Shown: one piece after another, positions 575-42,726 of the stretch
Layout of the letters: each line of letters opens with the position of its first letter
Numbering within the stretch: the first letter of the stretch is position 1
Source of the DNA: Candidatus Mycalebacterium zealandia
Lineage (GTDB): Bacteria; Desulfobacterota_D; UBA1144; Nemesobacterales; Mycalebacteriaceae
Assembly (NCBI GenBank): GCA_014075295.1
Contig: CP046180.1
Location: 954,458-1,018,457, forward strand
Reading direction: 5' to 3'
Length of the DNA stretch: 64,000 bases
The notes under the pieces: generated by a model
Databases searched by the model: none
Told to the model about the DNA's origin: nothing
What the model saw: only the letters and a program-made list of their open reading frames with translations
Program-made: the position numbers and the translations under genes

Positions 575-2134
575 ATGAAAGCCGCTACAAGAGAGGAAAT
601 ACGCGAGATAGACAGAGCGTCGGTTGATGAGCACGGGATTTCCGTAAACGTGCTTATGGAAAACGCCGGGCGCGCCGTTTGTCTGGCGGCGGAAAGAAAA
701 TTTCCCGAAGCCCGGAAAATAGCCGTTGTCTGCGGAGGCGGCAACAACGGCGGAGACGGCTTTGTCGCCGCGCGGCATCTGGCGGCCAAGGGAAAGAAAG
801 TTACCGTTTACACTTCAAAAAAAACAGCCGAATACTCAAAACAACCCCTTGAAAACCTGAAGTCCGCGGAAAAAAGCGGAATTCCAATCGTTGAAATTGG
901 AAAAGACCCGAAAAAAACACTGGAGAAAAAGATTGTCGGATGCGACCTCATAATTGACGCTCTGCTCGGCACGGGACTTGAATCCGAAGTTCGCGCGGCG
1001 GATGCCGGATTGATAGATTTCATCAACGCTTCAAAATGCCCGTGTCTTTCGGTGGATGTTCCGTCCGGCATAGACTCAAACACCGGAGCCGTTCTTGGCA
1101 AAGCCGTCAAAGCGGACGCGACCGTAACCTTCGTGGTTCCAAAAGTGGGCATATCCATTCACCCGGGGGTTGAGCACGCGGGCGAGATTTTTGTCGCGGG
1201 AATTACAACCCCTCCCCGTTTGGAAGAGAGAATCGCCTGCGAAATTACCACTTACCAGACCTGCGCCGGACTGTTGCATCCGCGAGCGGACGACTCCCAC
1301 AAGGGCACATACGGACACACGCTTGTTCTCGCGGGAGGCGTGGGGAAATCCGGCGCGGCGGTTCTCGCGACCGAAGCGGCGGTCAACGCGGGCTCGGGGC
1401 TTGTAACTCTCGGAGTTCCGAAAAGCGTCCACGCGTCCGCCGAACAGAAAGTTGTTGAGGCAATGAGCGAGCCGATTAAGGAATCGGACGGATGTTTCGG
1501 AGAGCCGTCCGTGCAAAAAGCGAAGGAAATACTGTCGGGCAAAAGCGCTCTTGTAACCGGTCCGGGAATCTCAACATCTGAGCAGACCGCGTTTTTTCTG
1601 TCCGAAATTGTGGCGGCGGCTTCCTGCCCAATCGTCATAGACGCTGACGGCTTGAATATAGCGGCTGAAAATCCCGGCATCTTTGACAAAATCCGGGGCG
1701 AAACCGTGTTGACGCCCCACCCCGCCGAGATGGCGCGGCTCTGCGGAAAAACCACCTCGGACATACAGGCGGACAGAATTGGCTCCGCGCGCGAATTGGC
1801 GGCGCGAACCGGCTGCTTTGTAGTTCTAAAGGGCGCACGAACCGTAACGGCTTGCCCGCAAGGCGCTGTTTTTATAAACCCTACGGGCAATCCCGCAATG
1901 GCTTCTGGCGGAATGGGTGACGTTCTTGCCGGGATTATCGGCGGACTTCTCGCTCAAGGGTACTGCGCGCGGGACGCTTGTATTCTTGGAGTTTTCGCGC
2001 ATGGGCTCGCAGGAGACATTGCGGCGCGACAGTCCGGCGGAGTGGCGGTCAGAGCGGGCGCGGTGTCCGGAGTTTTGTCCGCGGCTTTCGCCGCAATCGC
2101 AAAAGCGGACGGACAGTTTTTCACGGTCATTTGA
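575..2134 (+). CDS. nnr: bifunctional NAD(P)H-hydrate epimerase/dehydratase (YjeF_N + YjeF_C)
   Basis: Track ORF 491..2134 trimmed to ATG 575 (MKAATREEIREIDR). The N-terminal half has GGGNNGGDG (YjeF_N); the C-terminal half has a carbohydrate-kinase-like dehydratase region (GPG, GGMGDVLAG). Confidence 0.85.
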   Translation: MKAATREEIREIDRASVDEHGISVNVLMENAGRAVCLAAERKFPEARKIAVVCGGGNNGGDGFVAARHLAAKGKKVTVYTSKKTAEYSKQPLENLKSAEKSGIPIVEIGKDPKKTLEKKIVGCDLIIDALLGTGLESEVRAADAGLIDFINASKCPCLSVDVPSGIDSNTGAVLGKAVKADATVTFVVPKVGISIHPGVEHAGEIFVAGITTPPRLEERIACEITTYQTCAGLLHPRADDSHKGTYGHTLVLAGGVGKSGAAVLATEAAVNAGSGLVTLGVPKSVHASAEQKVVEAMSEPIKESDGCFGEPSVQKAKEILSGKSALVTGPGISTSEQTAFFLSEIVAAASCPIVIDADGLNIAAENPGIFDKIRGETVLTPHPAEMARLCGKTTSDIQADRIGSARELAARTGCFVVLKGARTVTACPQGAVFINPTGNPAMASGGMGDVLAGIIGGLLAQGYCARDACILGVFAHGLAGDIAARQSGGVAVRAGAVSGVLSAAFAAIAKADGQFFTVI

Positions 2135-7480: not shown

Positions 7481-7568
7481 CGGAGAGGGAGGGATTCGAA
7501 CCCTCGATACCCTTGTGAGGTATACTCGCTTAGCAGGCGAGCGCCTTCAACCGCTCGGCCACCTCTCC
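7481..7568 (-). tRNA. tRNA-Ser (GCU)
   Basis: Minus-strand sequence GGAGAGGUGGCCGAGCGGUUGAAGGCG...CUGCUAA...long variable arm...GGUUCGAAUCCCUCCCUCUCCG. Seven-bp acceptor stem, T-loop TTCGAAT, anticodon GCT. Confidence 0.85.
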
Positions 7569-10239: not shown

Positions 10240-10318
10240 TGGCGGCGCCGACGGGACTTGAACCCGCGGCCTCTGCCTTGACAGGGCAGCGCTCTAAACC
10301 AAGCTGAGCTACGGCGCC
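10240..10318 (-). tRNA. tRNA-Asp (GUC)
   Basis: Minus strand GGCGCCGUAGCUCAGCUUGGUUAGAGCGCUGCCCUGUCAAGGCAGAGGCCGCGGGUUCAAGUCCCGUCGGCGCCGCCA. Anticodon GTC; the CCA end is encoded. Confidence 0.85.
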
Positions 10319-10348
10319 TTTATCTATACACATCCTGCGGGGACGAAA

Positions 10349-10424
10349 TGGTGGGCGGTACCGGATTTGAACCAGTGACCCTCTGCTTGTAAGGCAGACG
10401 CTCTCCCACTGAGCTAACCGCCCC
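10349..10424 (-). tRNA. tRNA-Val (UAC)
   Basis: Minus strand GGGGCGGUUAGCUCAGUGGGAGAGCGUCUGCCUUACAAGCAGAGGGUCACUGGUUCAAAUCCGGUACCGCCCACCA. Anticodon TAC. Confidence 0.85.
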
Positions 10425-13765: not shown

Positions 13766-14099
13766 AAATCACCCTCACCTTGAAAGCAGGGAAGGATACA
13801 CATAGGGGCGGGAAAGTTCAAAAATTACGGCAACTCATACCCAATTTCCCCAACTGTCCTGAAAAATGCACGGAACACCCTCGCGCCTGCAAACTCTGAT
13901 TGTGTGCCCGGTTCCACCGGCTTCAGGGTCGGAAAAATTAACATAAAATAAAGCCGCAACCGGCCTTGGAAACGTATTCACCAGGAATTTCCCTGCGTCC
14001 CTCAAGAAGCACAACAGGGGCATCGGCGCCTCTCACAATCCCGGCAAATTCATCAAGAGTCATCTGTTTGTGTTGCATTTGAAAAAACCAAATTAAAAT

Positions 14100-14183
14100 G
14101 CGAGAGGAGGGACTTGAACCCCCACGGGAAAAATCCCACCAGATCCTAAATCTGGCGCGTCTGCCAATTCCGCCACTCTCGCG
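14100..14183 (-). tRNA. tRNA-Leu (UAG)
   Basis: Minus strand GCGAGAGUGGCGGAAUUGGCAGACGCGCCAGAUUUAGGAUCUGG...long variable arm...GGUUCAAGUCCCUCCUCUCGCA. Anticodon TAG. Confidence 0.8.
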
Positions 14184-14252
14184 GATTATGTGTCGCGGCA
14201 ATGCCGCTCCGCTTTTTCACCCTCACCCTGCCCTCTCCCGGCGGGAGAGGAT

Positions 14253-14325
14253 GGGCCGCAAGGGATTCGAACCCCTGACCATTTGATTAAGAGTCAACTG
14301 CTCTACCAACTGAGCTAGCGGCCCC
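14253..14325 (-). tRNA. tRNA-Lys (CUU)
   Basis: Minus strand GGGGCCGCUAGCUCAGUUGGUAGAGCAGUUGACUCUUAAUCAAAUGGUCAGGGGUUCGAAUCCCUUGCGGCCCA. Anticodon CTT. Confidence 0.8.
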
Positions 14326-20135: not shown

Positions 20136-21851
20136 TCACGCGACATCAACCGGGTCAAAGATCATCTGATTCATCGCCTCGCCGGGCGAAATCATCGGAT
20201 AGACCATCTCTTCGGGGTCAACTTTGATTTCCATCAAAACAACTCCTTTGGCTTCAAGTCCCTGTTTAAAAACCCCTTCAAGCTCTTCGGTTTTTTCGGC
20301 TTTCAAACCGGTCGCTCCGAAGGATTCGGCAAGTTTGACGAAATCCGGAAGGACGTTGAATTTGGAGCATGAGTAGTTTCCGTCAAAAAACATTGTCTGC
20401 CACTGCCGCACCATTCCGTGGTGTTCGTTGTTGAAAACCACAATTTTGAGGTCAAGCCCGTATTCAACGGCGACCGCGAGTTCCTGCATATTCATCTGGA
20501 AACTCCCGTCTCCGGAAACGCTTATGACAAGGTCGTTGGGCTTTGCGAATTTCGCGCCCATCGCGGCGGGAAACCCGAATCCCATTGTTCCAAGTCCGCC
20601 GGACGTTATGTGGCTGCGCGGACGGTTGAATTTGTAGAACTGCGCCACCCACATCTGATGCTGACCGACATCGCTCACAATTGTGGCTTCCCCGTCCGTC
20701 ATCGTGTGCAACATGTCAATGGCGTGGGTCGTCTGGATTTTGTCCGCATGCTCTTTGTGCTTGAGAGGGTGCTGTTTGTCCCACTTGCTTATCTGCTCTC
20801 TCCACGCGTCTCTCTCTGAGAGGTCAATGTCAGCCGGAAGGGCATCCATTATCTGCTCCAGAACCTGCTTCGCGTCCCCGACAATAGGACAGTCAACGTT
20901 GATGTTTTTGTCTATCGTTGAGGGGTCAATATCTATATGAATTATCTTTGCGTTCGGCGCAAACTGGTCAAAATTGCCTCCGGTCGCCCTGTCGTCAAAT
21001 CTTGCGCCAATTGAGACGACAAGGTCGGATTCGTGAACGGCCAGATTGGCGGCGTATGAACCGTGCATTCCAATCATATTGACAAAAAGCGGGTCGTTCG
21101 CGGGAAATCCGCCGAGCCCCATAAGGGTTGAGGTAACGGGTATGCGCAACCTGTGGGCGAACTCTTTAAGCCGCTCGGTGGCGCCGGACAAAATAACTCC
21201 GCCGCCCGAAAAAATTATGGGCTTCTTCGCTTTCTCTATGAAGGAAACCGCTCTCTTGATTTGAGCCGGATTCCCTTTCAGTTTCGGTTTGTAGCCCCTG
21301 ATGTTGACATCTTCAGGAATGCAAAGCTCACCCTCGCCGATAAGAACATCCTTGGGCATATCAACCAGAACCGGGCTGGGTCTTCCAGTTGTTGCTATGT
21401 GAAGCGCCTCTTTCATCGCTCTGGGAAGATCCTCGGTTTTCCGCACAAGCGTGTTGTGCTTCGTACAGGGTCTTGTTATACCGATGTGGTCGGCTTCTTG
21501 AAACGCATCGCTCCCAAGATACTGAGTCGGAACCTGTCCGGTGAATATGACGATCGGCGCAGAATCCATCTGAGCGGTCGCTATGCCGGTTACGGTGTTT
21601 GTCGCGGCGGGTCCGGAAGTGCAAAGCACAACTCCGGGCTTGCCGGACGCTCTGGCATAACCGTCCGCCATGTGGGTTGCCCCCTGTTCGTGGCGCGCCA
21701 TAACATGAAGGAACTTTCCTTCCTTCTCGTATTCGGTCATAACATCGTAAACCTTGAGGACATAGCCCCCGGGCAGACCGAAAACGACTTCAATACCCTC
21801 GTGAATGAGGGTCTCAAAAAACATCTGCGCTCCGAGCATTTGTTTTGACAT
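20136..21851 (-). CDS. ilvB: acetolactate synthase large subunit
   Basis: ThDP-enzyme motifs (GDGSFQMNMQELA) and the AHAS family signature. Trimmed to ATG 21851 (MSKQMLGAQMFFETL), which follows an AAGGAGG ribosome-binding site. Confidence 0.95.
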   Translation of the reverse strand: MSKQMLGAQMFFETLIHEGIEVVFGLPGGYVLKVYDVMTEYEKEGKFLHVMARHEQGATHMADGYARASGKPGVVLCTSGPAATNTVTGIATAQMDSAPIVIFTGQVPTQYLGSDAFQEADHIGITRPCTKHNTLVRKTEDLPRAMKEALHIATTGRPSPVLVDMPKDVLIGEGELCIPEDVNIRGYKPKLKGNPAQIKRAVSFIEKAKKPIIFSGGGVILSGATERLKEFAHRLRIPVTSTLMGLGGFPANDPLFVNMIGMHGSYAANLAVHESDLVVSIGARFDDRATGGNFDQFAPNAKIIHIDIDPSTIDKNINVDCPIVGDAKQVLEQIMDALPADIDLSERDAWREQISKWDKQHPLKHKEHADKIQTTHAIDMLHTMTDGEATIVSDVGQHQMWVAQFYKFNRPRSHITSGGLGTMGFGFPAAMGAKFAKPNDLVISVSGDGSFQMNMQELAVAVEYGLDLKIVVFNNEHHGMVRQWQTMFFDGNYSCSKFNVLPDFVKLAESFGATGLKAEKTEELEGVFKQGLEAKGVVLMEIKVDPEEMVYPMISPGEAMNQMIFDPVDVA

Positions 21852-22006
21852 CGGAACACCTCCTTTGAACACTCGGCTCCGAAACAACCGCGATGCTTTC
21901 GCCGCGCTCCGGCAGAACCGAAATTTGCTCCCGTTTGCTACGGAAGCGGTGAAATTATATGCGCACAGAAAAAATTTTCAAGAAAATTGTTAAATGTGAA
22001 GAAATA

Positions 22007-22915
22007 CTAACTGTCTAATCTTACCTTTTTCTCCAGCAAGTAGTTGCAAAACGCACTACATATAACAAGCATAAATTTTGCATCTTCAAAAGAGGCTTTC
22101 ATATCATTTGTTGTTCCGTGGCGAATACCATCTTCATCACTTGTGTATGCATACAACTTTTCCAAGGCAATTTTGAATGCCGGATGCAATTGTGTAGCAG
22201 ATTCTACTTCGTTTATACAATCTGATAATGTCGCATTGGACTTGCTGGCAATCTCTTTGCAGATTTGTTCTACGGCACTAATTGATTCTTTGATGGAATT
22301 TTCGTAGTCGGGGTTTTTTCTGTCATATAAGTGGTCGATTGCTTTCTCTATGTGAGGAGAGTGTTGAACAGCTTTCTCTACGGACTGTTTTTCCTCTTCG
22401 CTATCAAGGTCTGTTATTTGACCTTTTATAAGTCGGTATCCAACACATTGTTCTCTGAATACATCATTAAACTCATTGGTAAGTTGCTGAATAATTTCTG
22501 ATGATTGGTCATCAACAAGAAGGTCAATGAAGTCAAGTTTGTCATTATAAGAACTATCAAAAAAGAAACTACGATATTGTTTATATGAATCATCATTAAG
22601 CTTATATGACCATTCGTTGATAAGTTTACGTCCTATGGATTTAGGTCTAGGGTGAGAATCGTAAATTCCAGTAAATCTATCTAGGGGTTTTTCTAACAAT
22701 TCAGAGTGAATTTTTCTCATAGAATTAGTGACTTTCTGCCTATGTTCTTCCAGTTCTTCTATGCGGGAATAGGAACTTCCGAAATCCTGATTCCCCCCTT
22801 CAAAGAATTTAGTAACAACATCCCAAATTTTATTCTCTGTTACGGCATCAAACTCATCCTTTTGGAGAGTGGGCGACTCTTTCAAACCCTTTCTATAAGA
22901 AAATGTTTTCTTCAT
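22007..22915 (-). CDS. low-GC orphan protein, Abi/HEPN-type abortive-infection-like (tentative)
   Basis: A 302-aa ORF at about 38% GC (by eye) versus about 55% in neighbours. C-terminal ...DEDGIRHGTTNDMKASFEDAKFMLVICSAF resembles the R..HG core of Abi_C/HEPN-like domains; the N-terminus is a K/E-rich helical region. An AAAGG ribosome-binding site lies 8 nt upstream of the ATG. Confidence 0.6.
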   Translation of the reverse strand: MKKTFSYRKGLKESPTLQKDEFDAVTENKIWDVVTKFFEGGNQDFGSSYSRIEELEEHRQKVTNSMRKIHSELLEKPLDRFTGIYDSHPRPKSIGRKLINEWSYKLNDDSYKQYRSFFFDSSYNDKLDFIDLLVDDQSSEIIQQLTNEFNDVFREQCVGYRLIKGQITDLDSEEEKQSVEKAVQHSPHIEKAIDHLYDRKNPDYENSIKESISAVEQICKEIASKSNATLSDCINEVESATQLHPAFKIALEKLYAYTSDEDGIRHGTTNDMKASFEDAKFMLVICSAFCNYLLEKKVRLDS

Positions 22916-22933
22916 TGTATTTGCCTTTACAAA

Positions 22934-23113
22934 TCAACCCCTGATTTCTCGGAGAATATCGGCTTGACTACCAAGTGCATACGCCGAGTTCACAATAAAG
23001 AAGCCAAAATTGTTGGACTTGGCTTCGTCTATGGCGGAGAGAACCAACTTCTTCTGTTTGCCCTCAATGCCATTCCTCGCAAAAAACTCATCAACACGCT
23101 CACCATTAATCAC
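22934..23113 (-). CDS. 59-aa hypothetical small protein, translationally coupled to nuoL
   Basis: The GTG start overlaps the nuoL TGA stop (GTGA). It encodes VINGERVDEFFARNGIEGKQKKLVLSAIDEAKSNNFGFFIVNSAYALGSQADILREIRG and stops 17 nt before the ATG of the Abi-like gene. Absent from the ORF track, whose apparent cutoff is 60 aa. Confidence 0.35.
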   Translation of the reverse strand: MINGERVDEFFARNGIEGKQKKLVLSAIDEAKSNNFGFFIVNSAYALGSQADILREIRG

Positions 23114-25041
23114 ATCTTCACCGACACAATCACAAGCAGAACAATAAATACCACCATAGCGGCGGTATAAGCCCTCACAAAACCGCTTTGGAGAATACTG
23201 AAAAACCGCGCGAGCCTTTTCGTCGCGTCCGCAACACCGTTCACCGCGCCGTCCACAACGGAAGTATCAAACTCCGCGAAAGATTTTGAAAAATGCCTGA
23301 ATGGAACCGAAAACACCTTTTCGTAAAACTCATTGAGCAGAATTTGAGAATGCGAAAACCTTCTCGCCGCGCCGATTGCCGTGGTTTCCACAATTTTCTC
23401 CCGCAAGCGCGGAGAGGCTTGGTATAACAGAAGCGCGGCACCGATTCCGCCAAACGCGGCAATCACCGAAACAAGCGCAAGGGTGTAATGGCTGAGCCCG
23501 CCGTTGGCGGAGGGAACAAACACGCCCGTAACAGGCTCAAGAAAATGCGTAAGAAACTCTTCACCGAACGGAAAAAACTCCGAGAGAAAATGTGGGACGG
23601 AAAGAAAACCGCCAAAAATCGCGAGCGCCGCAAGGCACACGAGAGGAATCGTCATAACTGGCGGAGACTCATAGATTTTTTCCGCCGCTTCGGGCGGAGT
23701 GTTGTTTCCGCCCTCAAAAACGCGGAGATAAAGCCGCATCATATAAAACGCCGTCAGCATCGCGCCGAAAACAGCGGCGACCCAGTGCAAAACAAAACCG
23801 CCGTCATAAACAGCGGCAAGAATGGAATCCTTGCTGAAAAATCCCGCAAAAAACGGCACGCCTGAAATTGCCAGAGTTCCAATGAGAAAAGTGAACGCGG
23901 TAACGGGGATTTTTTTTCTCAATCCACCCATAAATTTCATATCCTGCTCGCCGCCCAGAGCGTGAATAACACTGCCCGCTCCGAGAAAAAGTAACGCCTT
24001 GAAAAAAGCGTGCGTTACAAGATGAAAAATTGCCACTCCGAACGCTCCCGCTCCCGCCGCCATAAACATAAAACCGAGTTGGCTAACGGTTGAATACGCA
24101 AGAACTTTTTTTATGTCGGTCTGGGAAACCGCGATGTAAGCCGCCACAAGAGCGGTAAAAACCGCCACTGTTAGAATGACAAACTGCGCGTCCGGCGCCG
24201 AGGAATAAAGAACGGCGAGTCGCGCGAGCATATAAACTCCGGCGGTAACCATGGTCGCCGCATGGATAAGAGCGCTTACGGGAGTGGGTCCCGCCATCGC
24301 GTCCGGAAGCCATACATAAAGCGGAAACTGCGCGCTTTTTCCAACCGCTCCGATAAAAAGAAGCAAACACACGGCGGTAAGAGCCCACTGCGGAGCGGCG
24401 GGAGCGGCGGAAATAATTTCAGAAAATTCAAGGGAGCCGAAAACCGCAAACACCAGAAAAATTCCCAGCATAAAACCGAAATCCCCTATGCGGTTCACGA
24501 CAAACGCTTTTCTGCCGGCATCAGATTTTGCTGAGTCATTGAACCAGAAACCGATGAGCAGGTAGGAGACAAAACCCACTCCCTCCCAACCGGCAAACAT
24601 TACGACAAACCCCGAGCCGAGAACGAGCAGAAGCATAAAAAACACAAACAAATTCAGAAGCGCGAAATAGCGCGGAACCGCGCCGTCTCCTTTCATGTAT
24701 CCGGCTGAATACACGTGAATCAAAAACCCCACCCACGTTATGACAAGTGTCATCACCGCGGACAGGCGGTCAAAAACAAAACTGAAAGATACCGCGAGTG
24801 AGCCGGAGGAGAACCATTCAAAAAATCTGAACTGCTCGGGCGAGCCGGAATAAACACCGTACGCGAGAACCGAAGCGCAAAGCGCGGAAATCAGAACTGC
24901 CACCGAACCGACAAAAGCGGACGCCTTCGCCTCAAAACCGGGCGACACAGCGTGCAAACGCCGGAGAAGTCCGGTTGAAATCAAAATGCCGTTGATGAAC
25001 GCTCCGGCAAGAGGGGTTAAAAGTATTAAAGGCAACATCAT
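23110..25041 (-). CDS. nuoL: NADH-quinone oxidoreductase subunit L
   Basis: 643-aa polytopic antiporter-like subunit with the long C-terminal amphipathic helix; overlaps the nuoK stop. Confidence 0.9.
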   Translation of the reverse strand: MMLPLILLTPLAGAFINGILISTGLLRRLHAVSPGFEAKASAFVGSVAVLISALCASVLAYGVYSGSPEQFRFFEWFSSGSLAVSFSFVFDRLSAVMTLVITWVGFLIHVYSAGYMKGDGAVPRYFALLNLFVFFMLLLVLGSGFVVMFAGWEGVGFVSYLLIGFWFNDSAKSDAGRKAFVVNRIGDFGFMLGIFLVFAVFGSLEFSEIISAAPAAPQWALTAVCLLLFIGAVGKSAQFPLYVWLPDAMAGPTPVSALIHAATMVTAGVYMLARLAVLYSSAPDAQFVILTVAVFTALVAAYIAVSQTDIKKVLAYSTVSQLGFMFMAAGAGAFGVAIFHLVTHAFFKALLFLGAGSVIHALGGEQDMKFMGGLRKKIPVTAFTFLIGTLAISGVPFFAGFFSKDSILAAVYDGGFVLHWVAAVFGAMLTAFYMMRLYLRVFEGGNNTPPEAAEKIYESPPVMTIPLVCLAALAIFGGFLSVPHFLSEFFPFGEEFLTHFLEPVTGVFVPSANGGLSHYTLALVSVIAAFGGIGAALLLYQASPRLREKIVETTAIGAARRFSHSQILLNEFYEKVFSVPFRHFSKSFAEFDTSVVDGAVNGVADATKRLARFFSILQSGFVRAYTAAMVVFIVLLVIVSVKM

Positions 25042-25337
25042 CCGCGAAAGTTTCTTATCAAATCTATGTTCAGACTTTTCAGCCCGGAGTAGAGAACAAT
25101 AACCAGCGCAAGCCCGATTGCGACCTCCGCCGCCGCCACCGTTATGGAAACCAGAACCAGCACATTGCCCGCTCCGTCTTCAAAAAGCCGCGAAAACGCT
25201 ATGAGGCAAAGGTTTGCCGCATTAAGCATAATCTCAACCGACATCAGAACAACAAGAATGTTTTTTCTTGTGAACACACCGAAAGCCCCAATGACAAAAA
25301 GGGCAAACGCAAGCGCGATGTATCCGTCCGGCGTCAA
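25038..25337 (-). CDS. nuoK: NADH-quinone oxidoreductase subunit K
   Basis: 99 aa with three TM helices and conserved glutamates (MSVEIMLNAANL, AAAEVAIGLAL). Confidence 0.9.
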   Translation of the reverse strand: MTPDGYIALAFALFVIGAFGVFTRKNILVVLMSVEIMLNAANLCLIAFSRLFEDGAGNVLVLVSITVAAAEVAIGLALVIVLYSGLKSLNIDLIRNFRG

Positions 25338-25870
25338 CGCAGACCCCTTGAAATCGCCACCGTTCCGACAATCGCCGCCACAATGAGAATTGAAGTTACT
25401 TCAAAAGCAAACAGATAGTCCGTGAGCAAAAGCCACGACATCTCCGAAACTGTTCCGTCAAAATCTCCCGTGCGGGCTGGCGCGGCGAACGGGGCAATTT
25501 TCAGCCCGAAATACACCGCCGCGACAATCGCGGGCAGAAGAAATGACAGTTTTTTCGGAATCTCCGACGGACCGAATTCCTCGTCGCTTTTGCGCACATT
25601 GAGAAAAACAATCGTGAAAAGAAAAAGAACGACAATTGCGCCCGCATAAACAAGCACCTGAACCGCCGCCAGAAAATGAGCGTCAAGAATACCGAAAAGC
25701 ACGGCGGATGAAACGATTGTTACAACAAGTGAAATCGCGCACAGAGCCGTGTTTGGAAGCAAAACAACCGCAATCGCGGACACAACGGCGAGCGCGGAAA
25801 ATATGTAAAAGAAAAGCGACTCGGCAACGGGCATTTGGTTGAACTTTACAGGAAATAGGGGGTGAGGCAA
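25334..25870 (-). CDS. nuoJ: NADH-quinone oxidoreductase subunit J
   Basis: NuoJ-like TM protein (VQVLVYAGAIVVLFLFTIVFL). Confidence 0.85.
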   Translation of the reverse strand: MPHPLFPVKFNQMPVAESLFFYIFSALAVVSAIAVVLLPNTALCAISLVVTIVSSAVLFGILDAHFLAAVQVLVYAGAIVVLFLFTIVFLNVRKSDEEFGPSEIPKKLSFLLPAIVAAVYFGLKIAPFAAPARTGDFDGTVSEMSWLLLTDYLFAFEVTSILIVAAIVGTVAISRGLR

Positions 25871-25904
25871 TAGAAAGTCTCAGTATTCAACACCTTGCTT
25901 ATCC

Positions 25905-27032
25905 TTATCTGTCCACCTTGTTAACAGTAGGTTTTGGTATATGCAATGGCATATTCGGATTTCCTTTTACAAATGGGGCAATACAAATAAGTCGGTGGGC
26001 ATTCTTGCTTGGATACCACTGTTTCCGCCAATGCATACGGACCCACCAACGCTTGTCCCACTCTGATTTACCTGTGCCTGGTTGATCTTTTATTTTTCTC
26101 CAAGTTACTACATTAACTTCAGTTTGGCTTACTGGTAAATCCATACCTATGCGCTTTCGGTCCGGTCGTTTCAATGCCTTTTCGCTTAGCACATCTACAA
26201 GTTTTTGCTCTAAGAAAGCAGTCATTTTTGCCGCAATAAAAAACCATGGATGATGAGCCGGTACGGCTGGTGCTACTAGCCTGAGAATATCTTTTTCAAG
26301 AGCTTCTGCTATAACCACTTGTTTATTATCAGGAATATTTTCCTCTACAGGGTTAGGATATATTCCCAACACTTCTCTCTGAGGCGTAATGATTATTGCA
26401 AAAGGAAAAAAGTTTTTTGAAAGATGTAATCTGTCAGCGACTTTGCCTTCATTAATCTTTCTAAACAGGTGAAACCCTACACCAATACCTTCAGGAAGTA
26501 TGAGCGACTCTGTTTCCAAGTTGTCAACATCGGGCATTGACAACACCTCTTCAATTTGTTCCGTGTGCCAATACCATGTCGGCATATCATCAAAAAACAA
26601 ATCCTCGAAATGAGATTCTAGCATTTGTTTTACAGCCTCTGCTTCCCCCGCACTGCTAGTAGAAAAATGAGAATTGACTATGCGGTCCCAACGTTTTTTA
26701 TCTGGTATATATCTTTTTATAATTTCATGTTTGGACAACATCTGTTGTTGTTTTGTTGTTTCCGCAATTTCTTTCCAGCTATCAGCGCCCTGAAAACAAC
26801 CCCGATTAATAAGGGTCTCCGTTATTCTTTCCACTGTGGGATGGCACTTTGAACATAGGGCTACAAGATTCTCTAGATTATCTGTCCCGCCGCGTCTTCT
26901 TGAAACAATATGATGAACATGAAGATTTTGCTTTTCAGGTTTATCCCCGCAAATCCGACACACCTTATCTCTTTCTCTTACTTCGGTGTATATGTCCGTC
27001 TCTGCTATTTTTTCCCATTTCCCCGACTTCAC
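25905..27032 (-). CDS. low-GC HNH endonuclease domain protein with an uncharacterised roughly 270-aa C-terminal region
   Basis: GTG start 1 nt after the nth stop. The N-terminus has CRICGDKPEKQNLHVHHIVSRRRGGTDNLENLVALCSKCH (HNH/zinc-binding). The C-terminus has no motif I recognise. GC is about 41% by eye. Confidence 0.75.
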   Translation of the reverse strand: MKSGKWEKIAETDIYTEVRERDKVCRICGDKPEKQNLHVHHIVSRRRGGTDNLENLVALCSKCHPTVERITETLINRGCFQGADSWKEIAETTKQQQMLSKHEIIKRYIPDKKRWDRIVNSHFSTSSAGEAEAVKQMLESHFEDLFFDDMPTWYWHTEQIEEVLSMPDVDNLETESLILPEGIGVGFHLFRKINEGKVADRLHLSKNFFPFAIIITPQREVLGIYPNPVEENIPDNKQVVIAEALEKDILRLVAPAVPAHHPWFFIAAKMTAFLEQKLVDVLSEKALKRPDRKRIGMDLPVSQTEVNVVTWRKIKDQPGTGKSEWDKRWWVRMHWRKQWYPSKNAHRLICIAPFVKGNPNMPLHIPKPTVNKVDR

Positions 27033-27033
27033 T

Positions 27034-27747
27034 TTATTTCACCCCGACCCTCATGCACCACTTACTCACCGGACAAACATCGCACTTTGGCGAGATGGGT
27101 TTGCAGATTGTCTGCCCGAACGCGACAAGCAGACCGTTGTATTCAATCCAGTATTTTCCCGGCAGTTTTTCGCGTAGCGCAAACTCGGTTTTTTCCGGCG
27201 TTTTTGTGCGCACATAGCCAAGCCTATTGGAAATTCTGTGAACGTGTATGTCAACACAAATCCCGGGTTTGCCGTAACCGAGTGTTACGACAAGATTGGC
27301 GGTTTTTCTTCCGACTCCATCAAAATCCAGAAGTTCATCAATCGTGTCCGGCACTTCACCGCCGCGCTCATTTTCAAGCCGCTTGCAAAGTTTGATTATG
27401 TTCGCCGCTTTTGTTCTGTAAAAACCAACCGGATAGATCAGTTTTTGAACCGTTTTCTCTCCCAGAGAGATAATCGCACGAGGCGTTTTCGCTTCGGCAA
27501 ATAATCTTCTTGAAGCCGCCGCGGTTGTTTCGTCTCTTGTGCGCAAACTCAAGATTGTGGAAATCAAAATCCTGAACGGGTCGCCGCCGTGCGTTTCCTC
27601 AAGGTTCATAACGGGCGGATTCCACTTTCGGGACTTAGTCCTCAAAATTGAGATGACTTTTGAAATGTTGGCGTCCGCAAACGCACCCTTATCAAAAGCC
27701 CGTATTGCGCGGGATGTTTTCGGCAACGGTCTATTGAAGCGGCTCAT
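27034..27747 (-). CDS. nth: endonuclease III
   Basis: HhH-GPD fold (LVAFGQTIC), catalytic K/D residues, and a C-terminal 4Fe-4S motif CKPISPKCDVCPVSKWC. Confidence 0.9.
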   Translation of the reverse strand: MSRFNRPLPKTSRAIRAFDKGAFADANISKVISILRTKSRKWNPPVMNLEETHGGDPFRILISTILSLRTRDETTAAASRRLFAEAKTPRAIISLGEKTVQKLIYPVGFYRTKAANIIKLCKRLENERGGEVPDTIDELLDFDGVGRKTANLVVTLGYGKPGICVDIHVHRISNRLGYVRTKTPEKTEFALREKLPGKYWIEYNGLLVAFGQTICKPISPKCDVCPVSKWCMRVGVK

Positions 27748-42373: not shown

Positions 42374-42726
42374 TGGTGGAGGCGGCGGGAATTGAACCCG
42401 CGTCCGCAAAAGAGAATCACCCAGCCTCTACATGCTTATCCCGCCGTAATTTGACGGAGAAAGTTGCCGGCGGGCGAGCGCTTTTTCCGTTTTCCCGATG
42501 AGTTTTCTCACCCGTTCGCGCACCGGAAGCCGCGAACAAGCCAGCCTGCTGGATGCCGCCTCACGAAGCCCGCAGGCATTGCCGCGTGAAGCGCTGCGGC
42601 GTTAATTAGGCCGCAAGTGCGTTAATTGGTTCGCCGTTTAATAAGCGAGAGGTCAGTTTAACGAGTTAGCCAAGCTCGGCATGCAACATGAGCTGTCTTC
42701 AGATACGTCGAAGCCAGTTCGCCCCC
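42374..42726 (-). ncRNA. ssrA: transfer-messenger RNA (tmRNA, SsrA)
   Basis: 5' GGGGGCGAACUGGCUUCGACG and 3' GGACGCGGGUUCAAUUCCCGCCGCCUCCACCA, i.e. a tRNA-Ala-like acceptor with the G3-U wobble pair. An internal tag ORF reads ...NGEPINALAA-stop. About 353 nt. Confidence 0.85.

What the first reader, a model, noticed from the sequence alone, without database searches (positions are those of the whole stretch)
21950..22930. AT-rich, roughly 1-kb insertion carrying an Abi/HEPN-reminiscent single gene between nuoL and ilvB
Base composition switches abruptly near 21955 and returns near 22935. The enclosed gene (22007..22915) is about 38% GC by eye. It encodes a 302-aa K/E/D-rich protein whose C-terminus (...SDEDGIRHGTTNDMKASFEDAKFMLVICSAFCNYL) is reminiscent of the R..HG core of Abi_C/HEPN abortive-infection domains. 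The canonical Rx4-6H spacing is absent, so this may be a divergent or new variant.

It is transcribed co-directionally right after nuoL and the 59-aa ORF. This is a horizontally acquired orphan with probable defence or toxin function.
Basis: partly seen in the sequence, partly recalled or inferred. Interest (0 to 1): 0.6.

Follow-up and report, generated by a model that had tools for sequence, protein, structure and literature searches.

The report
Surviving Abi-like gene of a decayed defence island
The AT-rich patch between nuoL and ilvB is real and carries a member of a large, already catalogued but untested family of candidate anti-phage proteins; here it is the last intact gene of an older restriction-modification island that related sponge-symbiont genomes have partly or wholly lost.

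Summary
Window 22007..22915 (minus strand) is a 302-aa ORF with 36.2% GC (GC3 0.33), the lowest-GC stretch of the whole 64-kb window (mean 0.494 ± 0.029).

It is not an orphan. It matches Pfam AbiJ_NTD4 (76 bits, cut-off 34) and, over its full length, the PADLOC candidate defence family PDC-S32 (E 4e-79). A profile search finds 6,772 cluster representatives.

The C-terminal domain is helical and HEPN-like only weakly (Foldseek, nothing significant). It lacks Rx4-6H. Instead R-H is adjacent and nearly universal (120/120 close homologues). A small sister subfamily has R[NG]x6H, which resembles the tested Abi_C motif RNEYGDAH.

Six related genomes date the island. Three carry the gene at the same site, at 55–67% identity, with a gene tree congruent with the species tree and dN/dS of 0.07–0.23. 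Three have nuoL abutting the ilvB promoter. One relative has a type II methyltransferase and restriction enzyme upstream of the gene. The window's 59-aa ORF is the C-terminal remnant of that restriction enzyme. The true indel is 21983..23113.

Verdict: a new member of a known candidate family. The defence role and RNase mechanism are inferred, not shown.

The parts
21983..23113 (.). Inserted segment (1,131 bp) relative to relatives in which nuoL directly abuts the ilvB promoter. This is the remains of a defence island.
   Evidence: blastn of the empty site in L092 against the window loses homology at 23114 and regains it at 21982. L092, L093 and L094 have only 190-215 bp between nuoL and ilvB.
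22007..22915 (-). 302-aa gene of the AbiJ-NTD4 / PADLOC PDC-S32 family (GKS04_04935, close to QMU56473.1, of Ca. Mycalebacterium zealandia).
   Evidence: ORF. Pfam PF18863 at 76 bits against a cut-off of 34. PDC-S32 PDLC04997 at E 4.4e-79 over residues 3-297. GC 0.362. Organism.
22364..22906 (-). N-terminal AbiJ-NTD4 domain (residues 4-184), alpha+beta. Proposed sensor or regulatory module. It carries a clade-specific insertion that forms a beta-hairpin (about residues 85-106).
   Evidence: Pfam match to residues 4-184. AlphaFold2 model with mean pLDDT 85.5 and strands 85-94 and 97-106. The insertion is visible in alignment A1. No structural match in PDB or BFVD.
22010..22363 (-). C-terminal helical domain (residues 185-302), HEPN-like. 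Proposed RNase effector.
   Evidence: AF2 model of the domain has pLDDT 84.2 and pTM 0.80 and is all-helical. The highest-probability Foldseek hits are HEPN proteins: 2hsb (prob 0.93, TM 0.61), then 1ufb, 2q00, 1wol and 3mfn. All have E > 0.1. No Pfam HEPN-clan hit.
22268..22300 (-). Codons for the NSIKESISAVE helix (residues 206-216). All but I208 are invariant in the 40-sequence alignment, and a near-exact form is present in all 120 listed homologues.
   Evidence: Alignment A1 invariant columns. The regular expression NS[IV]KES[IV]SA[VI]E is present in 120 of 120.
22118..22129 (-). Codons for G263-I264-R265-H266: the adjacent R-H pair that stands where HEPN proteins have Rx4-6H, in the loop before the last helix.
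   Evidence: The reverse complement of 22118..22129 is GGT ATT CGC CAC. [IV]RH is found in 120/120 close homologues and in 144/145 newly returned 50%-identity representatives. The sister subfamily has R[NG]x6H with A or S before the H.
22934..23113 (-). 59-codon ORF (GKS04_04940). It is the C-terminal remnant of a type II restriction endonuclease gene, not an independent partner gene. Its GTG start overlaps the nuoL stop codon.
   Evidence: Residues 7-56 align with residues 345-394 of the 397-aa protein in L003 (42% identity). That protein matches PADLOC REase_II at E 3.3e-71. The L002 counterpart is a fusion of the methyltransferase N-terminus and the REase C-terminus.
21954..21981 (-). ilvB promoter (TTGAAA-16-TATAAT). 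It marks the downstream edge of the insertion, so ilvB does not depend on read-through from the island.
   Evidence: 11 of 12 consensus matches. Conserved in position in occupied and empty sites.
23110..25041 (-). nuoL, the upstream flank.
   Evidence: ORF. Identical to QMU56475.1.
20136..21851 (-). ilvB, the downstream flank (the start is the ATG at 21851).
   Evidence: ORF. The 571-aa product is identical to QMU56472.1.

Best explanation
The gene encodes a two-domain, single-polypeptide candidate anti-phage protein of the AbiJ-NTD4 / PDC-S32 family. The N-terminal alpha+beta AbiJ-NTD4 domain is proposed to sense a phage component and to keep the effector off. The C-terminal helical domain is proposed to be a divergent HEPN-type RNase. 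Its active site would be built from the NSIKESISAVE helix and an adjacent R265-H266 pair. On activation it would degrade RNA and arrest the infected cell (abortive infection).

In this genome (Ca. Mycalebacterium zealandia, a 1.16-Mb sponge symbiont) it is the last intact gene of a roughly 3.3-kb island. That island held a type II methyltransferase, a restriction enzyme and the AbiJ-like gene. It was inserted between nuoL and the ilvB promoter in an ancestor of this clade. The restriction-modification pair was later deleted, leaving a 59-codon remnant. Sister lineages lost the whole island.

Shown: family membership, conserved residues, insertion boundaries, shared ancestry of the island, purifying selection, and defence-island contexts elsewhere.

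Inferred: RNase chemistry, the sensing role of the N-terminal domain, and the abortive-infection phenotype.
For: Family membership:
- Pfam AbiJ_NTD4 at 76 bits against a cut-off of 34.
- PDC-S32 at E 4.4e-79 over the full length.
- 6,772 profile hits among cluster representatives, with a uniform length of about 280 aa among the 150 best listed.

Enzyme-like conservation in the C-terminal domain:
- Invariant N206, S207, K209, E210, S211, S213, E216, H188, H244, Y255, R265 and H266 in the 40-sequence alignment.
- [IV]RH in 120/120 close homologues and 144/145 newly returned representatives.

Link to HEPN:
- The highest-probability Foldseek hits are HEPN proteins.
- Family member P0053 gives a sub-threshold Abi_C match over the IRHG motif plus the last helix (E 0.048).
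- Arginine placement is mutually exclusive between subfamilies. The sister subfamily has YGYR[NG]xxxG[VI][AS]H, and the window subfamily has Y.Y[TSA][SNG]xxxG[IV]RH.
- The sister motif resembles SadR's RNEYGDAH, in which R225, N226 and H232 are needed for RNase and defence activity (PMC13590631).

Defence context of the family:
- Beside a type II R-M pair in L003.
- In a Thermodesulfovibrio island with an AAA_15/21 ATPase, DUF6602, EMARD_N and two R-M systems.
- Near R-M genes in L084.
- On 23 plasmids and 4 phages.
- Anantharaman et al. 2013 defined AbiJ-NTD4 as an N-terminal domain fused to AbiJ-family HEPN domains. They proposed the sensor/antitoxin plus RNase model (PMC3710099).

History at this locus:
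- Occupied sites in the window, L002 and L003; empty sites in L092, L093 and L094.
- Species tree ((W,L092),L002),(L093,L003),L094. AbiJ-like identities are W-L002 65%, W-L003 55% and L002-L003 54%, which is congruent with that tree.
- REase and methyltransferase remnants with different deletion end-points in the window and in L002.
- dN/dS of 0.07-0.23.
Against: No member of PDC-S32 or of this AbiJ-NTD4 subfamily has been tested, as far as the searchable literature shows.

The HEPN assignment is weak by every direct test available here:
- No Pfam HEPN-clan match for the query.
- No PDB sequence match, even with a profile.
- All Foldseek E-values are above 0.1.

The positions that hold the essential R and N in SadR are T258 and S259 here. 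The domain could therefore be catalytically dead or use different chemistry.

GC3 has stayed at 0.31-0.33 in all three lineages, against about 0.55-0.63 for their ilvB genes, even though synonymous sites are saturated. That is unexpected for a long-resident gene.

No promoter of its own was found.

The restriction-modification partner has decayed, and three sister lineages lost the gene. It is therefore dispensable.
Confidence: 0.65

Rival explanations
1. Recent or recurrent horizontal transfer. The island is not ancestral. It moves among related symbionts, for example by homologous recombination through the conserved nuoL and ilvB flanks. This would give a patchy distribution and an unameliorated AT-rich composition.
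For: GC3 of 0.31-0.33 in all three carriers, against a median of 0.53 for long ORFs in the window and 0.55-0.63 for the carriers' ilvB genes. Presence and absence alternate even between close relatives: the window has it, while L092, at 91.6% concatenated identity, does not. The family is mobile elsewhere, on plasmids and phages.
Against: The three copies are each other's closest relatives among 5.8 billion protein clusters; the next best hits are 38-45% identical. Their branching order matches that of the hosts. Their dN (0.24-0.32) is in the range of host genes such as psd (0.245). All three share the same insertion point and the same restriction-modification ancestry, with lineage-specific deletion scars.
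Confidence: 0.15
2. The C-terminal domain is a non-catalytic HEPN-like or unrelated helical bundle. The protein would act by binding, as a regulator or scaffold or as an inhibitor of a phage or host factor, and not as an RNase.
For: The canonical R and polar residue of R-phi-x(3-5)-H are replaced by T/S/A and S/N/G in 120/120 members. These residues are essential in SadR. There is no significant HEPN match by sequence or by Foldseek. Only 3 of 2,815 Abi_C proteins carry AbiJ-NTD4, so the usual partner of NTD4 is not recognised as Abi_C (PMC13590631).
Against: A dozen polar residues are invariant, including an R-H pair in the loop before the last helix, roughly where HEPN motifs lie. The complementary placement of the arginine in the sister subfamily suggests that the arginine is required and has merely moved.
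Confidence: 0.2
3. The gene is a functionless relic on its way to loss in a reduced symbiont genome.
For: The restriction-modification partner has been deleted. The whole island has been lost in L092 and L093, and is lost or never present in L094. There is an apparent frameshift in the L002 copy. No promoter of its own was detected.
Against: The ORF is intact and every family-invariant residue is present. dN/dS is 0.07-0.23 over long divergence. The L002 frameshift lies in a T7 run on a contig labelled 4x coverage, so it may be a sequencing error.
Confidence: 0.12
4. A two-gene toxin-antitoxin pair in which the 59-aa ORF is the antitoxin of the HEPN-like toxin.
For: The small ORF lies 18 bp upstream on the same strand, and a counterpart exists in L002.
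Against: The small ORF is homologous to the C-terminus of a type II restriction enzyme. In L002 it is a methyltransferase/REase fusion scar. It is absent from L003 and from the other family contexts examined. It has no family match.
Confidence: 0.03

Closest known systems
PADLOC PDC-S32 (single-gene 'phage defence candidate')
   Same: Full-length match to both PDC-S32 models (E 4.4e-79 and 7.5e-65). The L003 orthologue matches the same models. Same length and same two-domain layout.
   Different: Nothing structural separates it. PDC-S32 is itself only a candidate, and I found no paper naming it or testing it.
AbiJ-NTD4 proteins of Anantharaman et al. 2013 (prototype CBY_0614; Pfam PF18863; NCBIfam NF046078 STM4504/CBY_0614)
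   Same: The N-terminal domain matches PF18863 above the cut-off. The architecture, an NTD followed by a C-terminal helical effector, is the one described.
   Different: Only a weak partial match to the NCBIfam model of the prototype (19.3 bits against a cut-off of 150). The paper lists Rx4-6H as conserved in the AbiJ HEPN family, and here it is not.
Abi_C / AbiJ HEPN RNases (Lactococcus AbiJ = Abi-859; S. aureus SadR)
   Same: One polypeptide carrying a C-terminal helical domain with an essential His near the last helix. The sister subfamily motif RNxxxxGVAH resembles SadR's RNEYGDAH. The family is linked to defence islands.
   Different: The query gives no Abi_C (PF14355) match. The best in the family is 14.2 bits against a cut-off of 24. 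No PADLOC model other than PDC-S32 matched at E <= 1. R and N at the canonical positions are replaced, and the arginine sits next to the His.
HEPN domains embedded in restriction-modification operons (Anantharaman et al. 2013)
   Same: In L003 the gene follows a type II methyltransferase and restriction enzyme on the same strand, with a 21-bp gap. The window retains the scar of that arrangement.
   Different: Here the restriction-modification pair is gone and the HEPN-like gene survives alone. The paper also notes that it is mainly AbiJ proteins without N-terminal domains that sit in R-M operons.
Minimal HEPN proteins of HEPN-MNT toxin-antitoxin pairs (PDB 2hsb, 1ufb, 2q00, 1wol)
   Same: These are the best fold-level matches of the C-terminal domain (TM 0.5-0.6).
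   Different: No sequence similarity, no MNT partner gene, a different motif, and statistically insignificant structural scores.

Membership tests
Pfam AbiJ_NTD4 (PF18863) | Match to the family HMM at or above the gathering score (34 bits) | tested here: met
   76 bits, E 5.8e-21, residues 4-184 on profile positions 2-151 of 152. All 40 aligned homologues match.
PADLOC PDC-S32 | Full-length match to the PDC-S32 HMMs | tested here: met
   PDLC04997 at E 4.4e-79 and 264 bits, residues 3-297 on 8-281 of 285. PDLC04996 at E 7.5e-65.
PADLOC PDC-S32 | Occurrence next to known defence genes (my understanding of the rationale for a 'defence candidate'; not checked against PADLOC's documentation) | tested here: met
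   A type II R-M pair is adjacent in L003. R-M systems, an AAA_15/21 ATPase, DUF6602 and EMARD_N surround P0097. R-M genes lie near P0011. In the window itself only a restriction-enzyme remnant is left.
PADLOC PDC-S32 | Demonstrated protection against phage | not testable with these tools
   No paper in the library names PDC-S32.
HEPN superfamily | Four-helix up-and-down bundle of the HEPN type | tested here: inconclusive
HEPN superfamily | Rx4-6H motif before the last core helix | tested here: not met
   The sequence is T258-S259-D-E-D-G-I-R265-H266, so R and H are adjacent. 120/120 close homologues have [IV]RH and lack R at the -8 position. The sister subfamily has R[NG]x6H, i.e. Rx7H.
HEPN superfamily | Conserved polar or acidic residue on an earlier core helix | tested here: met
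   N206, K209, E210 and E216 are invariant on the helix spanning residues 204-223.
HEPN superfamily | Metal-independent RNase activity | not testable with these tools
   Needs purified protein.
Pfam Abi_C (PF14355), the AbiJ-type HEPN domain | Match to the family HMM at or above the gathering score (24 bits) | tested here: not met
   No hit for the query at E <= 1. The best among members is P0053 at 14.2 bits, E 0.048, over residues 233-266. A precomputed PF14355 hit is listed for P0101 only.
NCBIfam NF046078 (STM4504/CBY_0614 family) | Score at or above the curated cut-off (150 bits) | tested here: not met
   19.3 bits, E 5.5e-4, residues 136-227 only.
Type II toxin-antitoxin pair | A conserved adjacent partner gene encoding the antitoxin | tested here: not met
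   The adjacent 59-aa ORF is a restriction-enzyme remnant. No common small neighbour appears in the other contexts.
Genomic island acquired by horizontal transfer | Present or absent at an otherwise syntenic site, with atypical composition | tested here: met
   There are three empty sites and three occupied sites. GC is 0.34-0.36 against about 0.50. The acquisition predates the split of the carriers.

The most novel reading that the evidence does not exclude
PDC-S32 / AbiJ-NTD4 proteins could be a HEPN lineage in which the catalytic arginine has moved. It would have shifted from the canonical R-phi position, retained as R[NG]x6H in a small sister subfamily, to the residue directly before the histidine. 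The 'RH' form is found in 120/120 close homologues and 144/145 representatives.

This would give an active site that current HEPN motif definitions and Pfam clan models miss. If so, several thousand 'AbiJ-NTD4 domain-containing' proteins would be active RNase defence effectors of an undescribed motif type. The persistently AT-rich coding sequence might then be selected, for example to limit expression of a toxic enzyme.
Probability: 0.4. Interest if true: 0.5.

Novelty: new member of a known kind. Interest (0 to 1): 0.33.

Why it matters
For this genome, the finding turns two 'hypothetical proteins' (GKS04_04935 and GKS04_04940) into a candidate Abi-type defence gene and a restriction-enzyme scar. 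It also shows a defence island eroding step by step in a 1.16-Mb sponge-symbiont lineage: R-M plus Abi, then Abi alone, then nothing. That gives a concrete series for studying which immune genes reduced symbionts keep.

For the family, the complementary R placement (RH against RN...H) gives a simple experiment. Mutate R265 and H266, and swap in T258R/S259N with R265A. This would show whether a very large catalogued but untested family (6,772 cluster representatives) consists of real HEPN RNases with a non-canonical motif.

It is not a new kind of system.

Tried and rejected
- **Genome-contig scan with nuoL.** I replaced it with a nuoL protein search plus contig look-ups.
- **Metagenome-contig scan.** A 28-base pattern from the conserved ilvB leader gave 0 hits.
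- **PDB by sequence.** Neither the single protein nor the C-terminal profile gave anything meaningful; phosphoglycerate kinase, NDUFA9 and designed coiled coils appeared at E > 0.01.
- **Foldseek.** The full-length model and the domain model against PDB, and the full-length model against viral structures, gave no significant match. The N-terminal domain has no structural neighbour.
- **Supplement of the 2013 HEPN paper.** It held no alignment text.
- **Search with the Leptospira plasmid homologue.** I hoped to find NTD4 proteins with a recognisable Abi_C domain. It returned 12 proteins, none with Abi_C, but it exposed the RN...H sister motif.
- **Divergent plasmid members.** All are NTD4 proteins and none has a Pfam HEPN hit.
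- **The 59-aa ORF as antitoxin or partner.** Rejected.
- **A known RNA between the gene and ilvB.** No Rfam match.
- **Literature on PDC-S32 and on Mycalebacterium.** Nothing found.
Full report
**What is at the coordinates.**

The window carries, on the minus strand, nuoJ (25334..25870), nuoK (25038..25337) and nuoL (23110..25041). These are followed by a 59-codon ORF (22934..23113), a 302-codon ORF (22007..22915), and then ilvB (20136..21851), ilvN, ilvC and psd.

The 302-codon ORF is 36.2% GC (GC3 0.327), against 51-52% for nuoL and ilvB. Among all 909-bp stretches of the window the mean GC is 0.494 with sd 0.029. The minimum, 0.354, begins at 21951. The ORF also has the lowest GC3 of the 32 ORFs of at least 250 aa in the window.

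Exact look-ups place the window in Candidatus Mycalebacterium zealandia, or a near-identical strain. This is a Dadabacteria-class sponge-associated MAG whose largest contig is 1.16 Mb. The nuoL, ilvB and 59-aa products are identical to QMU56475.1, QMU56472.1 and QMU56474.1. The 302-aa product is in the same 90% cluster as QMU56473.1.

**What the protein is.**

It matches Pfam AbiJ_NTD4 (PF18863) over residues 4-184 at 76 bits, against a gathering score of 34. It matches both PADLOC models of the single-gene 'phage defence candidate' PDC-S32 over its whole length, with E 4.4e-79. NCBIfam gives only a weak partial match to the STM4504/CBY_0614 family (19 bits against 150). PHROGs gives nothing useful.

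The protein is far from an orphan:
- 3,398 clusters at 90% identity match at E <= 0.001.
- A profile of 40 members finds 6,772 representatives of 50%-identity clusters, of which 3,138 are at E <= 1e-30.
- The 150 best of these are nearly all 270-310 aa and match end to end.

Members occur on 23 plasmids (Pseudomonas, Leptospira, Piscirickettsia and others) and in 4 phage records. Where contexts could be read, the neighbours are defence genes:
- The Thermodesulfovibrio member lies between an AAA_15/AAA_21 ATPase gene and DUF6602, EMARD_N and two restriction-modification (R-M) systems.
- Another member lies near a cytosine methylase with an NgoFVII-type enzyme and a second methylase.
- A third lies beside Bro-N and a ResIII helicase.

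AbiJ-NTD4 was defined by Anantharaman et al. (2013) as one of five N-terminal domains fused to AbiJ-family HEPN domains. They proposed that such domains sense phage components and hold the C-terminal RNase in check (PMC3710099).

**The C-terminal domain and the missing Rx4-6H.**

Residues 185-302 give no Pfam match. Among 40 homologues scanned one by one, the only HEPN-clan signals are DUF4145 in two members (E about 0.02) and Abi_C in P0053. The Abi_C match is 14.2 bits against a cut-off of 24, and covers the IRHG motif plus the last helix. Neither the protein nor a profile of the domain finds a relative in the PDB by sequence.

Conservation is enzyme-like. The helix NSIKESISAVE (206-216) is invariant at every position except I208 in the 40-sequence alignment. 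H188, H244, Y255, G263, R265 and H266 are also invariant there. [IV]RH is present in 120 of 120 listed homologues and in 144 of 145 newly returned 50%-cluster representatives.

A small sister subfamily adds something new. It comprises a Leptospira plasmid protein and twelve relatives, and keeps the NSIKE helix. Its motif reads YGYR[NG]xxxG[VI][AS]H, with an arginine eight residues before the His and Ala or Ser directly before it. The window's subfamily has [TSA][SNG] at those two upstream positions and Arg directly before the His. The two placements are mutually exclusive in every sequence examined.

The sister motif resembles RNEYGDAH of SadR, an Abi_C protein of Staphylococcus aureus. In SadR, R225A, N226A and H232A each abolish RNase activity and phage defence (PMC13590631). 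That paper also reports that only 3 of 2,815 Abi_C proteins carry AbiJ-NTD4. This agrees with my finding that the C-terminal domain of NTD4 proteins escapes the Abi_C model.

My reading is that the arginine is needed and has relocated. The alternative is that the domain has lost catalysis, and I keep that as a rival.

**History of the island.**

The two closest homologues in the protein collection (67% and 55% identity; the next are 38-45%) lie at the same place, directly upstream of ilvB and downstream of nuoL. They belong to two related uncultured genomes, L002 and L003. Both copies are also AT-rich, with GC 0.342 and GC3 0.31.

A nuoL search found further relatives. In three of them nuoL is followed directly by ilvB, with only 190-215 bp between the two genes:
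- L092, nuoL 90% identical to the window's.
- L093, nuoL 75% identical.
- L094, nuoL 71% identical, from a 1.4-Mb contig.

Aligning the L092 empty site to the window places the break points at 23114 and 21982. The indel is therefore 21983..23113 and includes the 59-codon ORF. Its downstream edge is the -35 box of a near-consensus ilvB promoter (TTGAAA-16-TATAAT, 21981..21954). That promoter is conserved in both occupied and empty sites.

A neighbour-joining tree of six concatenated flanking proteins (1,976 ungapped columns) gives ((window, L092), L002), (L093, L003), L094. The W+L092 and L093+L003 pairs were recovered in all 200 bootstrap resamples, and the W+L092+L002 grouping also had the top count. 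The AbiJ-like proteins are 65% (window-L002), 55% (window-L003) and 54% (L002-L003) identical, which is the same branching order.

Nei-Gojobori dN/dS is 0.23, 0.07 and 0.09 for the three pairs. Synonymous sites are saturated, and dN (0.24-0.32) is similar to that of psd.

In L003 the gene is preceded by a 373-aa N6/N4 methyltransferase (PADLOC MTase_II, E 9.6e-57) and a 397-aa protein that matches PADLOC REase_II at E 3.3e-71. The two small ORFs elsewhere are scars of these genes:
- The window's 59-aa ORF aligns with residues 345-394 of that restriction enzyme (42% identity).
- The corresponding 61-aa ORF in L002 is a fusion. Its first 28 residues are the methyltransferase N-terminus (89% identity). 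Its last 33 are the restriction-enzyme C-terminus (58% identity).

Because the window keeps restriction-enzyme residues that L002 has lost, the two deletions were independent.

The simplest history has three steps:
1. One insertion of a methyltransferase + restriction enzyme + AbiJ-like island before these lineages split.
2. Two independent deletions of the R-M pair.
3. At least two losses of the whole island.

The L002 copy has an apparent frameshift in a T7 run on a contig labelled 4x coverage. It is otherwise open, so I treat the frameshift as a possible sequencing error.

**What does not fit.**

If the gene has been resident long enough for synonymous sites to saturate, its GC3 should have drifted towards the host value. 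In fact GC3 is 0.31-0.33 in all three lineages, while their ilvB genes are at about 0.55-0.63. The R-M genes of L003 are intermediate, with GC3 0.42-0.47.

There are two possible explanations. Either selection keeps the gene AT-rich, or the island has been exchanged within the clade more recently than the tree suggests. I cannot decide between these with six genomes.

I also found no promoter of its own. The gene starts 18 bp after the remnant ORF, which overlaps the nuoL stop codon. Transcription may therefore depend on read-through from nuoJKL.

**Verdict.**

It is an inserted, Abi/HEPN-type, probable defence gene with a non-canonical motif. It is not an orphan, not recent, and not originally a single-gene island.

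It is a new member of a catalogued but untested candidate family (PDC-S32 / AbiJ-NTD4). The RNase mechanism and the defence phenotype are inferences from family, conservation and context, so interest is modest. The relocated-arginine pattern is the only element that might repay an experiment.

Noticed in passing
window 25859..27037 (ORF 25905..27032, minus strand): A second low-GC insertion (about 0.41 GC, 1,179 bp) lies on the other side of nuoJKL, between an endonuclease-III-like gene and nuoJ. It holds a 375-aa protein with an N-terminal HNH nuclease motif (Pfam HNH, E 7.7e-13). NCBIfam IscB matches only over the HNH part, and PHROG 15934 matches residues 300-370. Relatives L092, L003, L093 and L094 have only a few tens of bp there.
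   Followed up: partly
window about 21854..21950 (minus strand): A roughly 90-nt 5' leader of ilvB, downstream of the TTGAAA-16-TATAAT promoter, is highly conserved in all six related genomes. It is predicted to form two hairpins, the second followed by a U-rich run. Covariation is slight (2 of 32 pairs) and there is no Rfam family. It may be an attenuator or an unknown regulatory RNA of the ilvBNC operon.
   Followed up: partly
window 23110..25870 and loci L003, L092-L094: nuoJ, nuoK and nuoL form a three-gene cluster with no nuoM or nuoN beside them. The cluster sits between an endonuclease-III-like gene and ilvBNC in all five genomes whose locus covers that side (L002 begins inside nuoL).
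   Followed up: no
L002 about 1600..1612: The L002 orthologue of the gene is split by an apparent frameshift in a T7 run. The contig name indicates about 4x coverage, so this may be a sequencing error and not pseudogenisation.
   Followed up: partly
L003 18489..19819: Downstream of the M16 peptidase gene, L003 carries a convergent pair: a 119-aa DUF4325 protein and a 324-aa protein with no family. No such pair is called at the corresponding place in L001, which is near-identical to the window. This may be another small accessory module.
   Followed up: no
window 42374..42726; 7481..7568; 10243..10423; 14099..14324: A tmRNA gene and five tRNA genes, all on the minus strand, are the only Rfam gathering-score matches in the window.
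   Followed up: no
L095 4314..6101 and L096 3888..5054: In two plasmids (Pseudomonas aeruginosa pF076 and Leptospira kirschneri pLiSL22) the AbiJ-NTD4 gene is followed on the same strand by a gene annotated 'ATP-binding protein'. This could be a recurrent partner in some subfamilies.
   Followed up: no
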